64,000 nucleotides of DNA, taken from contig NC_043000.1 of NCBI RefSeq assembly GCF_006345805.1, forward strand, positions 116,684,001-116,748,000. The letters run 5' to 3'. Positions 21,766-23,345 of this stretch are shown here, piece by piece (position 1 is the first letter of the stretch; each line of letters opens with the position of its first letter). The position numbers are program-made. The stretch is from Octopus sinensis. Its lineage: Eukaryota.

Positions 21766-23270
21766 TGTATATATGTGAGAAAAGAGTTTCACTTTTAATA
21801 GTTTCAGTATTAAGCGTGAAACTATTAAAACTGAAAAATTATTTTCTCACATTGCAATACTGATGTTATTGTTTCACATTTGACATGTAATACTGAAATA
21901 GTGTAAGAGATAAGATATTGCTCCGGGCTCGCATTAGGCAGGGATTTGTATTTTTTTGGCCCATGACACTGCATGTACCCTACGTAAGGCATGTGTTACA
22001 TTTGAATGGAACTCATTGGGTAGTACTCAACTTTTAATGATGCATATATATATACTAGCAGCATATAGCTCCTTGTAGCAAACATGATGCTCGCTGTGAA
22101 TTAAAAAAAAATTCCTGCCAATTTGTGAAAGATATTGTCGAAAATATGTAATCTTGAATTTGAACGCGATTTCCCAAAATGGCATGATTTTATCGATTTT
22201 TTCTGATGGTAAGGTATTGCATGGAAAACTAACGTCAGTTTCTTAGGGTAATATTAAGCTTCACCATAAGTTTGGTGAAAATCGATTGCAAGTTGCGAAA
22301 ACTATAACAGAAAACGTGTTGCATATAAAAAGCCTAGATTCACGACCCCATGTCGAATTTATCGATTTATTTCAGAACTGGGGGAACTTTTCAAAGTTTT
22401 CGGTGCGATAGTTTTGAATTATGACATTGGGCTATGTGTGTGTCAAGTTTCATCAGAATCGGTGGAAAGCCGTGGTCAGGGTGAGGGTACAACCTGACAG
22501 ACACACAGACACACAGACAGACAAACTGCCGTTTATATATATATATAATATAATATAATATAATATAATATAATATATATATATATATACATACATACAG
22601 ACAGACACGTATTCTCAGCTATATATATATATATATTATATATATATATATACATATAAAAGTAAATAAATGGCACAACAAAGCAACGATATTTACTGGA
22701 AAATAGCGAACGTAATAAATACGACGCTAATGTATAGCTTCACTGCGTATGTACTAGTAAAGATGCGTGTGTGCAGCAAACATGAAAAAAATTTTCTTAC
22801 CTCTAGGAAGAACATCTGAAAAATGAAAAACCTAGAAACGGATAATGCAGTACCGGTTTCAGATTCTTCAAAATACGTATGCCAACGTATATTTGATTTA
22901 TCTTCATCAGCCGCATATACCTCGACAATATTTCAAATGTTGCCACATCTATGCCAGTACACTCGTCTGAACGCCAAAACGTTAACAGAACGAGAACAGT
23001 GAAGAAGTTTCAATGAAAATAGTAATGCAATACGAGAGTATTGCTTTCCAGTAAAGGATAGCCCGTAAGGGTAAAATTATACATATAAAAGTAATTGAAT
23101 GGCACAACGAATCACCGATATTTACTGGAAAATAGCGAACGTAAAAAATACGACGCTAATGTATAGCTTCACTGCGTATGTACTAGTAAAGATACGTATG
23201 TGCAACAAACATGAAAAAAATTGTCTTACATCTAGGAAGAACATCTGAAAAATGGAAAACCTAGAAACGG

Positions 23271-23345
<75 letters not shown>

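What the first reader, a model, noticed from the sequence alone, without database searches (positions are those of the whole stretch)
22651..23273. Candidate retrozyme: 1.45-mer of a 429-nt unit with an intact hammerhead, ending near the cleavage site
Seen: 194-bp direct repeats at period 429, no meaningful ORF, (TA)n flanks and a complete type I HHR on the minus strand (22916-22845). The predicted 3' product starts at 22850. The equivalent upstream position is 23279, and the element's 5' end is 23273, only 6 nt away. Established: metazoan non-LTR retrozymes are tandem HHR repeats that yield circular RNAs and are proposed to use Penelope-like RT. Inference: the insert is cDNA of a self-cleaved or circular RNA of about 429 nt. 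With at least six HHR motifs of several sequence families in 64 kb and a PLE ORF relic at 38530, this genome may host a large ribozyme-retroelement system. I cannot confirm that it is undescribed.
Basis: partly seen in the sequence, partly recalled or inferred. Interest (0 to 1): 0.88.

Follow-up and report, generated by a model that had tools for sequence, protein, structure and literature searches.

The report
Hammerhead-bearing Penelope-type retroelement insert
This is a short, non-coding mobile element carrying a self-cleaving hammerhead RNA motif, inserted as one-and-a-half copies into a TA repeat; it is a fresh example of the already described animal retrozyme / Penelope-like family rather than a new kind of system.

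Summary
22649-22844 and 23078-23273 are 196-nt direct repeats (94% identical, period 429) between two (TA)n runs. The minus strand at 22916-22845 carries a full type I hammerhead core, with predicted cleavage before C22850. No motif that good appeared in 0 of 200 shuffles, but Rfam scores it far below threshold: HH9 17.5 bits against 52.

The ribozyme is the Penelope-like, dimer-dependent kind, because helix III is a loop-less CCGG palindrome. The locus holds only one copy, so it cannot release a unit-length RNA on its own.

A partial head-to-tail tandem, a microsatellite target, no ORF, 36% GC and a strongly self-paired 429-nt unit (z = -4.8) fit a non-autonomous Penelope-type element, that is an animal non-LTR retrozyme. 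That kind is in print (PMC7229834, PMC4209133, PMC8557442, bioRxiv 10.64898/2026.07.22.740005).

Three more such elements lie in the window, and there is a probable Penelope-like ORF relic.

The 5' end lies 6-9 nt from the cleavage site in 1 of 4 elements (about p = 0.02-0.04). That is suggestive, not shown.

Verdict: new member of a known kind; modest interest.

The parts
22649..23273 (-). Whole insert, 625 nt = 1.46 units, read 5'->3' on the minus strand
   Evidence: Direct repeat of period 429. No other copy in the window. Boundaries against the (TA)n flanks.
23078..23273 (-). Upstream partial copy (196 nt), the pseudo-LTR-like part. It corresponds to positions 7-202 after the cleavage site and lacks the hammerhead.
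   Evidence: 94% identical to 22649-22844. The first 3 nt are ambiguous with the TA flank.
22649..23077 (-). One complete 429-nt unit, 35.7% GC
   Evidence: Folded as a circle: -111.2 kcal/mol, 62% paired, z = -4.82, and 0 of 100 shuffles as stable. The opposite polarity gives z = -5.4.
22845..22916 (-). Type I hammerhead motif: helix I 6 bp, CUGAUGA, 43-nt helix II, GAAA, loop-less CCGG helix III, GUA then cleavage before C22850
   Evidence: 0 of 200 shuffles as good. Rfam HH9 17.5 bits, below gathering. Helix II alone folds at -9.8 kcal/mol.
22649..22658 (-). 3' terminal TA-rich decamer of the unit, one mismatch from (TA)5. Proposed site of microhomology priming on the nicked (TA)n target.
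   Evidence: Sequence. The priming role is inferred.
22620..22648 (.). (TA)n flank on the element's 3' side
   Evidence: TRF.
23274..23342 (.). (TA)n flank on the element's 5' side
   Evidence: TRF 23271-23342, (AT)36, 94% matches.
21331..21662 (-). Element B: a single-copy short element between (TA)n and (CA)n(TA)n with a hammerhead-like motif at 21453-21364. It shares the helix I and cleavage-site words with the main element.
   Evidence: Flaws: a U.C at the base of helix I and a U.U at the base of helix II. No Rfam hammerhead hit.
4678..5265 (-). Element C: a 55-nt partial copy plus a 533-nt unit, a second partial tandem. Hammerhead-like motif at 4920-4844. The 3' end abuts (CA)n.
   Evidence: 4678-4732 = 5211-5265, 100%. 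Sequence. A.C at the base of helix II. No Rfam hammerhead hit.
48938..49235 (+). Element C': a 5'-truncated copy of C (88% identical) with its hammerhead-like motif at 48995-49070. It has a (TA)n run directly at its 3' end and another about 30 nt from its 5' end, and a 20-nt inverted piece at its 5' edge (48918-48937).
   Evidence: Helix I keeps pairing through one double change and one G.U to G-C change. Helix II is damaged by a 1-nt deletion.
38521..38898 (+). Decayed ORF related to the linker region of RT + GIY-YIG-like (Penelope-like) proteins
   Evidence: phmmer finds 671 relatives at E <= 0.001, best informative hit 2.1e-09. hhalign probability 98.8%. Relatives show an RT-like YRDDG motif upstream and a GIY-YIG-like part downstream. 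Atlas neighbours carry RVT_1 and GIY-YIG. Pfam, PDB profile and Foldseek gave nothing significant.

Best explanation
Read on the minus strand, 23273-22649 is a more-than-unit-length cDNA insertion of a short, non-coding retroelement that carries a hammerhead. It consists of a 196-nt partial copy followed by a full 429-nt unit.

It is best filed as a non-autonomous derivative of Penelope-like elements. That is an animal 'non-LTR retrozyme' in the wide sense, with the minimal, dimer-dependent PLE kind of hammerhead.

Likely course of events:
1. A multi-copy master locus is transcribed (inferred).
2. Paired hammerheads cleave after GUA and leave an RNA whose 5' end is the C equivalent to 22850 (inferred).
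3. A Penelope-like RT/GIY-YIG endonuclease nicks a (TA)n run. This is the published target bias of several PLE clades.
4. The nicked DNA primes on the TA-rich decamer inside the RNA, and this sets the 3' end at 22649 (inferred from the microhomology).
5. Reverse transcription runs 202 nt to the cleavage-site junction, through it, and on through another unit to the 5' end of the RNA.
6. The cDNA joins the target through a TAT microhomology 6-9 nt from that end (inferred from one coincidence).

The template was therefore longer than one unit. I lean towards a linear RNA cut at its first hammerhead, or two monomers joined by a template jump. A circular RNA is the other possibility, and the window cannot decide between them.

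The resulting copy keeps a single hammerhead that cannot form helix III alone. It is probably a dead-end copy, about 6% diverged between its two repeats.
For: - Repeat of period 429 and TA flanks.
- Hammerhead core and helices: 0 of 200 shuffles as good. Only this motif passes a second, min-HHR-style descriptor, where the shuffle mean is 0.11.
- The CCGG helix III without a loop matches the 'palindromic, extremely short' stem III of PLE hammerheads that act as dimers (PMC4209133 passages; PMC6765202 passages).
- No ORF over 79 aa inside the element. GC is 35.7%, and the unit is strongly self-paired, z = -4.82 with 0 of 100 shuffles as stable. The literature describes retrozyme RNAs as low-GC and highly self-paired (PMC7229834).
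- Partial tandems (pseudo-LTRs), (TA)n/(CA)n insertion bias and non-autonomous PLEs with head-to-tail copies are described in PMC8557442.
- Three more short hammerhead-bearing elements lie in the window with the same habits. Of the 8 junctions of the 4 elements, 6 abut TA or CA microsatellites directly and 1 lies about 30 nt from one. (TA)>=5 covers only 4.1% of the window.
- Element C is also a partial tandem.
- C and C' keep helix I through one compensatory change.
- A and B share the helix I and cleavage-site words but nothing else.
- A probable Penelope-like ORF relic lies 15 kb away.
Against: - Rfam does not call the motif: 0 hits at gathering, and 17.5 against 52 bits.
- The 10.1-11.1 pair is A-U, whereas PMC4209133 stresses a conserved G-C.
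- There is only one hammerhead and 1.46 units here. Published retrozymes are dimers to multimers, and invertebrate ones mostly carry canonical hammerheads with loop-loop contacts, which I could not see here.
- There is no other copy of the unit in 64 kb. Copy number and mobility are therefore unknown.
- The unit has no similarity to the ORF relic's surroundings, and no reverse transcriptase is linked to the unit.
- No target-site duplication can be read inside a microsatellite.
- The 5'-end coincidence holds for 1 of 4 elements. Element C starts 117 nt past its cleavage site, and C' and B start upstream of theirs.
- Strong folding in both polarities is what any self-complementary sequence gives. 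It does not show a circle.
Confidence: 0.62

Rival explanations
1. One reading: the template was a covalently closed 429-nt circular RNA. It was copied by rolling-circle reverse transcription for 1.46 turns. Under this reading, the 5' end near the cleavage site is chance, or reflects a circle re-opened by its ribozyme.
For: - Published models for both PLEs and retrozymes propose more-than-unit cDNA made from circular RNA (PMC4209133 discussion; PMC7229834 discussion; PMC7761336).
- The unit folds strongly as a circle.
- A 1.46-mer has no defined junction, so any register fits.
Against: - A closed circle gives no reason for the cDNA to stop 6-9 nt from the cleavage site (chance about 0.02-0.04).
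- The two 196-nt repeats differ at 12 positions. That needs either age or two different template units.
- Nothing in the window shows a circle.
Confidence: 0.25
2. It is not an independent short element. It is two variably 5'-truncated tandem ends (pseudo-LTR pieces, 196 and 429 nt) of an autonomous 3-4 kb Penelope-like element of this genome.
For: - PLE insertions are typically 5'-truncated partial tandems with the hammerhead in the pseudo-LTR (PMC8557442; PMC6765202).
- A Penelope-like ORF relic exists in the window.
Against: - The 625 nt share nothing with the relic region or with any other part of the window.
- The 429-nt unit is strongly self-paired as a whole.
- The sibling element C is also a short complete unit plus a partial copy, with no ORF.
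Confidence: 0.15
3. It is a DNA-level tandem duplication or a remnant of a small satellite array next to unstable microsatellites. On this view the hammerhead-like motif is a decayed or chance feature without activity.
For: - The region is full of slippage-prone repeats.
- Rfam scores the motif below threshold.
- Satellite arrays of retrozyme units can grow by unequal crossover (preprint discussion).
Against: - 0 of 200 shuffles match the motif.
- There are 5 hammerhead-like cores in the window against 0.2 expected.
- The element ends exactly at TA runs on both sides, as its three relatives do.
- Helix I shows a compensatory change in C against C'.
Confidence: 0.07

Closest known systems
Metazoan non-LTR retrozymes (Cervera & de la Pena 2020, PMC7229834; passages read)
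   Same: Type I hammerhead; a non-coding unit of 150-450 bp; low GC; head-to-tail copies; a highly self-paired unit RNA; co-occurrence with Penelope-like elements.
   Different: Only 1.46 units and one hammerhead here. The hammerhead is the minimal PLE type (loop-less palindromic helix III, long helix II, no visible loop-loop contacts) rather than the canonical type reported for most invertebrate retrozymes. Expression and circles are untested.
[quoted passage not shown] 2017, seen only in reference lists)
   Same: CUGANGA...GAAA core; a short palindromic helix III that needs a second copy; a larger helix II; position inside a directly repeated terminal segment; very variable sequence within one genome.
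   Different: No RT/EN ORF between the repeats. 10.1-11.1 is A-U, not the conserved G-C. Helix II, at 43 nt, is much longer than the 7-8 bp described.
Non-autonomous Penelope-like elements with pseudo-LTRs and microsatellite targets (Craig et al. 2021, PMC8557442; passages read)
   Same: Short elements that make pseudo-LTRs and head-to-tail insertions; insertion bias for (TA)n or (CA)n, so that no target duplication can be read.
   Different: Those described in that paper (for example MRC1) belong to Chlamys in green algae, and most lack canonical hammerheads. Similarity of the 3' end to an autonomous partner, shown there, could not be tested here.
Animal retrozymes as non-autonomous PLE derivatives (Li, Clavereau & Pollet, bioRxiv 10.64898/2026.07.22.740005; abstract, results part 1 and discussion read)
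   Same: The same conclusion at family level. Monomers, dimers and multimers all occur, and consensus lengths run from 51 to 972 bp.
   Different: That study is vertebrate-centred. It gives no analysis of insertion ends relative to the cleavage site in the parts I read.
Schistosome SINE-like retroposons with hammerheads (Sm-alpha / Sj-alpha; seen only in review PMC6765202)
   Same: Short, non-coding, dispersed retroposons that carry a type I hammerhead.
   Different: Those have an internal promoter followed by the ribozyme and are not described as partial tandems in TA runs.

Membership tests
Hammerhead ribozyme, type I | Conserved core C3-U4-G5-A6-N7-G8-A9, G12-A13-A14, A15.1-U16.1, H17 not G | tested here: met
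   CUGAUGA at 22910-22904, GAAA at 22860-22857, U-A at 22852-22851.
Hammerhead ribozyme, type I | Three helices around the core, with helix I open | tested here: inconclusive
   Helix I has 6 bp, and helix II has a 4-bp base plus an upper stem. Helix III is CCGG with no loop, so it cannot close in one molecule and needs a partner copy.
Hammerhead ribozyme, type I | Reaches Rfam's curated score for a hammerhead family | tested here: not met
   0 hits at gathering in the window. HH9 scores 17.5 bits against 52.
Hammerhead ribozyme, type I | Self-cleavage | not testable with these tools
   Needs in vitro transcription of monomer and dimer constructs.
PLE-type minimal hammerhead (PMC4209133) | Very short or absent helix III with palindromic 15.2-16.2 / loop 3 | tested here: met
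   A-CCGG-U is a 6-nt palindrome.
PLE-type minimal hammerhead (PMC4209133) | Conserved G10.1-C11.1 pair | tested here: not met
   A-U in this element. The relatives have A.C in C and U.U in B.
PLE-type minimal hammerhead (PMC4209133) | Lies in the pseudo-LTR of an element that encodes RT and GIY-YIG endonuclease | tested here: not met
   No ORF over 79 aa inside the element, and no similarity to the ORF relic region. The element is non-autonomous at best.
Metazoan non-LTR retrozyme (PMC7229834) | Tandem repeat of 150-450 bp units, dimer or more, each unit with a hammerhead | tested here: not met
   Period 429 but only 1.46 units and a single hammerhead. Monomeric 'offspring' copies are, however, reported for these families (preprint results).
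Metazoan non-LTR retrozyme (PMC7229834) | Non-coding and low GC (below 45-50%) | tested here: met
   35.7% GC. ORFs of at most 79 aa inside the element.
Metazoan non-LTR retrozyme (PMC7229834) | No LTR / PBS / PPT features | not tested
   No call looked for a primer binding site or a polypurine tract in the element.
Metazoan non-LTR retrozyme (PMC7229834) | Unit RNA predicted to be highly self-paired | tested here: met
   Circular MFE -111.2 kcal/mol, z = -4.82, 0 of 100 shuffles as stable.
Metazoan non-LTR retrozyme (PMC7229834) | Expressed as linear and circular unit-length RNA | not testable with these tools
   No transcriptome available.
Penelope-type insertion (PMC8557442) | Partial head-to-tail tandem (pseudo-LTR) | tested here: met
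   A 196-nt partial copy ahead of a full unit. Element C has the same form, 55 + 533 nt.
Penelope-type insertion (PMC8557442) | Insertion into (TA)n or (CA)n microsatellites | tested here: met
   Both junctions are in (TA)n. 6 of the 8 junctions of the four elements abut TA/CA runs, against 4-5% of the window in such runs.
Penelope-type insertion (PMC8557442) | 3' end shared with an autonomous element of the same genome | tested here: inconclusive
   None found within the 64 kb.

The most novel reading that the evidence does not exclude
The insert is a full-length cDNA. Its 5' junction, 6-9 nt from GUA|C, would be a genomic footprint of hammerhead self-cleavage in vivo. Its 3' end would mark microhomology priming of a TA-rich stretch on a nicked (TA)n target. 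If copies of this and sister families pile up at 'post-cleavage part + one unit', the role of Penelope-type hammerheads (called 'unknown' and 'a mystery' in PMC7761336) would be settled as 5'-end definition of a linear, longer-than-unit transposition template rather than circle formation. Genome data alone could test this.
Probability: 0.18. Interest if true: 0.6.

Novelty: new member of a known kind. Interest (0 to 1): 0.3.

Why it matters
The kind is known. Animal genomes hold short hammerhead-bearing retroelements thought to ride on Penelope-like reverse transcriptases. The value of this locus is as a clean, small specimen. It has both junctions in a (TA)n run, a defined 3' microhomology and a 5' end next to the predicted cleavage site. 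It also has three sibling elements and a probable Penelope-like ORF relic within 64 kb.

If a genome-wide survey showed the same end positions, it would give sequence-level evidence on two open points. One is what Penelope-type hammerheads are for. The other is whether the template of more-than-unit insertions is linear or circular.

Taken alone, the locus is an old copy (its repeats are about 6% diverged) with a single ribozyme, and probably inert.

Tried and rejected
- Rfam over the whole window at E <= 10: 313 matches. The 150 listed were almost all microRNA families sitting on TA/TG microsatellites, and none was a hammerhead. That made the scan useless for counting ribozymes, so I scanned three small regions instead.
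- MAFFT alignment of the four hammerhead regions misaligned the cores because helix II lengths differ.
- Homodimer cofolding of the 72-nt motif paired the two whole hairpins with each other. It says nothing about a double hammerhead.
- A search for a shared 3' end between the unit and the ORF relic region found nothing.
- A search for direct or inverted repeats around the relic, 37400-39450, found none.
- Motifs at 38281-38185 and 24762-24711 passed the tolerant descriptor, but I rate them doubtful. The first has an AU-only helix II base and a mismatch next to the core. In the second, the 'core' is one arm of a plain hairpin.
- ORF relic checks:
  - The search for homologous proteins with longer lengths scored nothing.
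  - Pfam found nothing for the relic beyond a sub-threshold GRDP-like hit, and nothing for 13 of 13 homologues scanned.
  - A profile of 16 homologues against PDB sequences gave no hit below E = 0.5.
  - Foldseek of an AlphaFold model (mean pLDDT 63, with a confident domain at about 170-300) gave 0 of 177 matches at E <= 0.001. Three GIY-YIG nucleases were among the weak top hits.
- ARAGORN found no tRNA gene, so the SINE-like repeats stay unclassified.
- I did not try to name the organism.
- Not checked:
No other genomic copy of the 429-nt unit could therefore be examined. Copy number, 5'-end pile-up and an autonomous partner all stay unchecked.
The hammerhead and retrozyme family lists in the supplements of PMC7229834, PMC4209133, PMC8557442 and the 2026 preprint may already contain this family.
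- In print: I found no statement that genomic 5' ends of retrozymes or PLEs coincide with the cleavage site in searches, or in the passages read. These are word searches of an open-access subset, not proof of absence.
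Full report
**What is there.**
The plus strand from 22649 to 23273 lies between two TA microsatellites: 22534-22658 / 22620-22652 and 23271-23342. It holds a direct repeat of 196 nt, 22649-22844 and 23078-23273, 94% identical, at a spacing of 429. A base-by-base comparison gives 12 mismatches in 196, six of them transitions. 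BLAST of the 625 nt against the whole window finds only itself; every other match is 38 nt or shorter with E >= 0.009. No stop-to-stop ORF wholly inside exceeds 79 aa.

**The ribozyme motif.**
The minus strand 22916-22845 reads as follows:

| Part | Coordinates |
|---|---|
| Helix I, 5' strand | 22916-22911 |
| CUGAUGA | 22910-22904 |
| Helix II, 43-nt imperfect hairpin (-9.8 kcal/mol alone) | 22903-22861 |
| GAAA | 22860-22857 |
| CCGG | 22856-22853 |
| U-A | 22852-22851 |
| Helix I, 3' strand | 22850-22845 |

- My strict descriptor (helix I >= 4, II >= 3, III >= 1) finds this motif alone in the window.
- Among 200 dinucleotide shuffles the mean count was 0.03. None had helices as long as observed.
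- A second, min-HHR-style descriptor again finds only this motif, with a shuffle mean of 0.11.
- Against this, Rfam finds nothing at gathering score in the window. In a 201-base scan it gives Hammerhead_HH9 17.5 bits where 52 are required, E = 0.059.
- Two features depart from a textbook motif. The 10.1-11.1 pair is A-U. Helix III is a four-base palindrome with no loop, so it cannot close within one molecule.
- That second feature is the hallmark of the hammerheads of Penelope-like elements and of newt-type satellites, which work as dimers (PMC4209133 passages; PMC6765202 passages; PMC7229834 passages).

**What the 1.46-mer means.**
I count from the cleavage site, with c1 = 22850.
- The insert reads c7(-c10)..c202, then c203..c429 with the hammerhead, then c1..c202.
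- The 3' end falls at a TA-rich decamer of the unit that differs from (TA)5 at one position.
- The 5' boundary shares TAT with the flank.
- The upstream partial copy starts just after the place where a second hammerhead would end. The locus therefore has one ribozyme and cannot release a unit-length RNA.
- The 429-nt unit folded as a circle gives -111.2 kcal/mol with 62% paired, against -84.2 +/- 5.6 for 100 shuffles (z = -4.82, none as stable). The opposite polarity behaves alike, z = -5.4. This shows self-complementarity, not circularity.

**Relatives in the window.**
A tolerant descriptor gives five distinct cores, all on the minus strand. The mean in 300 shuffles is 0.2, the maximum is 3, and none reaches 5.
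- B (about 21662-21331) is a single short element between (TA)n and (CA)n(TA)n. It shares with the main element the words around helix I and the cleavage site, and nothing else.
- C (5265-4678) is a 55-nt partial copy plus a 533-nt unit that ends at (CA)n.
- C' (48938-49235, plus strand) is a 5'-truncated copy of C at 88% identity. It has a TA run directly at its 3' end and another about 30 nt from its 5' end.
- Between C and C', helix I keeps pairing through one double change (U-A to A-U) and one G.U to G-C change. A one-base deletion damages helix II of C'.
- B and C each have a mismatch at the base of a helix, and neither gets an Rfam hammerhead hit at E <= 10.
- The motifs at 38281-38185 and 24762-24711 are doubtful.
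- That makes six candidates in all: one strong, three plausible, two doubtful.
- Of the eight junctions of the four elements, six abut TA or CA runs and one lies about 30 nt from one. Perfect (TA)>=5 runs cover 4.1% of the window.

**The ORF relic.**
- 38521-38898 has 671 relatives at E <= 0.001 in the representative library. The best informative hit is 2.1e-09.
- It aligns to a profile of 16 of them with 98.8% probability over 74 columns.
- Longer relatives show an RT-like YRDDG stretch upstream. Downstream they have a cysteine cluster followed by a GIY...YIG-like stretch with no cysteines between the two halves (by eye).
- Atlas neighbours of one relative carry HTH_animal, GIY-YIG (12-45% of members) and RVT_1 (16-23%).
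- An AlphaFold model has a confident domain. Its weak Foldseek hits include I-TevI (TM by target 0.52), T4 EndoII and Hpy188I, but none has E <= 0.001.
- Pfam and the PDB sequence profile give nothing.
- I take it as a probable Penelope-like relic. The lack of the internal cysteine pair recalls the Hydra clade as described in PMC8557442. That is a lead only.

**Mechanism.**
The published picture has these parts:
- Penelope-like elements insert by target-primed reverse transcription.
- They form partial tandems (pseudo-LTRs).
- They prefer microsatellites: (TA)n for Naiads, with a zinc-finger-like linker suspected in Neptune.
- They carry dimer-type hammerheads in the pseudo-LTR.
- They have non-autonomous derivatives (PMC8557442).
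- Animal retrozymes are proposed, and in a 2026 preprint argued, to be such derivatives (PMC7229834; 10.64898/2026.07.22.740005).

The locus fits this picture at every point I could test.

The one added detail is the 5' end 6-9 nt from the cleavage site. Under a uniform 5' end the chance is 10/429 (one side) to 19/429 (either side). It suggests a linear template whose 5' end was made by the ribozyme and whose internal ribozyme stayed uncut, or two monomers joined by a template jump.

Element C starts 117 nt beyond its cleavage site. That is compatible with 5' truncation but is no support. B and C' begin upstream of theirs within a single unit. So 1 of 4 elements shows the coincidence, and all 4 are compatible with 'never longer than post-cleavage part + one unit'. 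With four elements that is weak.

**Known or new.**
The kind is described, and the family-level claim cannot be checked here. No eukaryotic collection was open, supplements were closed, and only 64 kb were available. I rate it a new member of a known kind, with interest 0.3. The bolder reading, that insertion ends record ribozyme cleavage in vivo, gets a probability of about 0.18.

**Limits.**
- There is no expression data, no cleavage assay and no second copy of the unit.
- No covariance model could be built, because the alignment failed.
- Counts of motifs rest on my own descriptors.
- Remarks on the activity of an A-U 10.1-11.1 pair rest on recall and on the conservation statement in PMC4209133.
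- Lunse et al. 2017 was not held and is cited from reference lists only.

Noticed in passing
19796-20324 (+) and 22062-22589 (-): An inverted pair of a repeat of about 530 bp, 92.5% identical, each ending in (GACA)n then (TA)n. The right-hand copy's TA tail leads into the run that holds the studied insert. The pair encloses element B and a SINE-like repeat.
   Followed up: partly
24961-25425 and at least 10 other places (e.g. 59203-59642, 14621-15062, 8863-9267, 27592-27985, 13508-13895): A repeat of about 465 bp at 73-88% identity, the commonest interspersed repeat of the window, often next to microsatellites. Unclassified.
   Followed up: no
20997-21308; copies at 4344-4594, 3602-3792, 58751-58886, 53899-54080: A SINE-like repeat (up to 93.7% between copies) that looks tRNA-derived by eye. 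ARAGORN finds no tRNA gene anywhere in the window.
   Followed up: partly
48918-48937 versus 5112-5131: The 20 nt just 5' of the truncated copy C' are, relative to the element, an inverted piece of an upstream part of unit C (1 mismatch; 0 of 100 shuffles give two matches). This is a small 5' inversion of the kind made by template switching or twin priming.
   Followed up: partly
38521-39158 (+): The Penelope-like ORF relic stops at 38898, and a second open frame, 38691-39158, overlaps it. I did not test whether that frame continues the protein after a frameshift. The relic runs into a long (TGTA)n-type microsatellite at about 39400-39960.
   Followed up: partly
40894-41316 (-): A 140-aa open frame with ordinary, non-repeat composition and no Pfam match. 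It may be an exon or a transposase remnant.
   Followed up: partly
whole window: 128 perfect (TA)>=5 runs (4.1% of bases), plus many (TG)n, (GACA)n and (TGTA)n runs. They produce hundreds of sub-threshold microRNA-family matches in an Rfam E-value scan (313 at E <= 10), a trap for automated RNA annotation.
   Followed up: yes
47591-47690: A run of 100 N (assembly gap or mask), left untouched.
   Followed up: no
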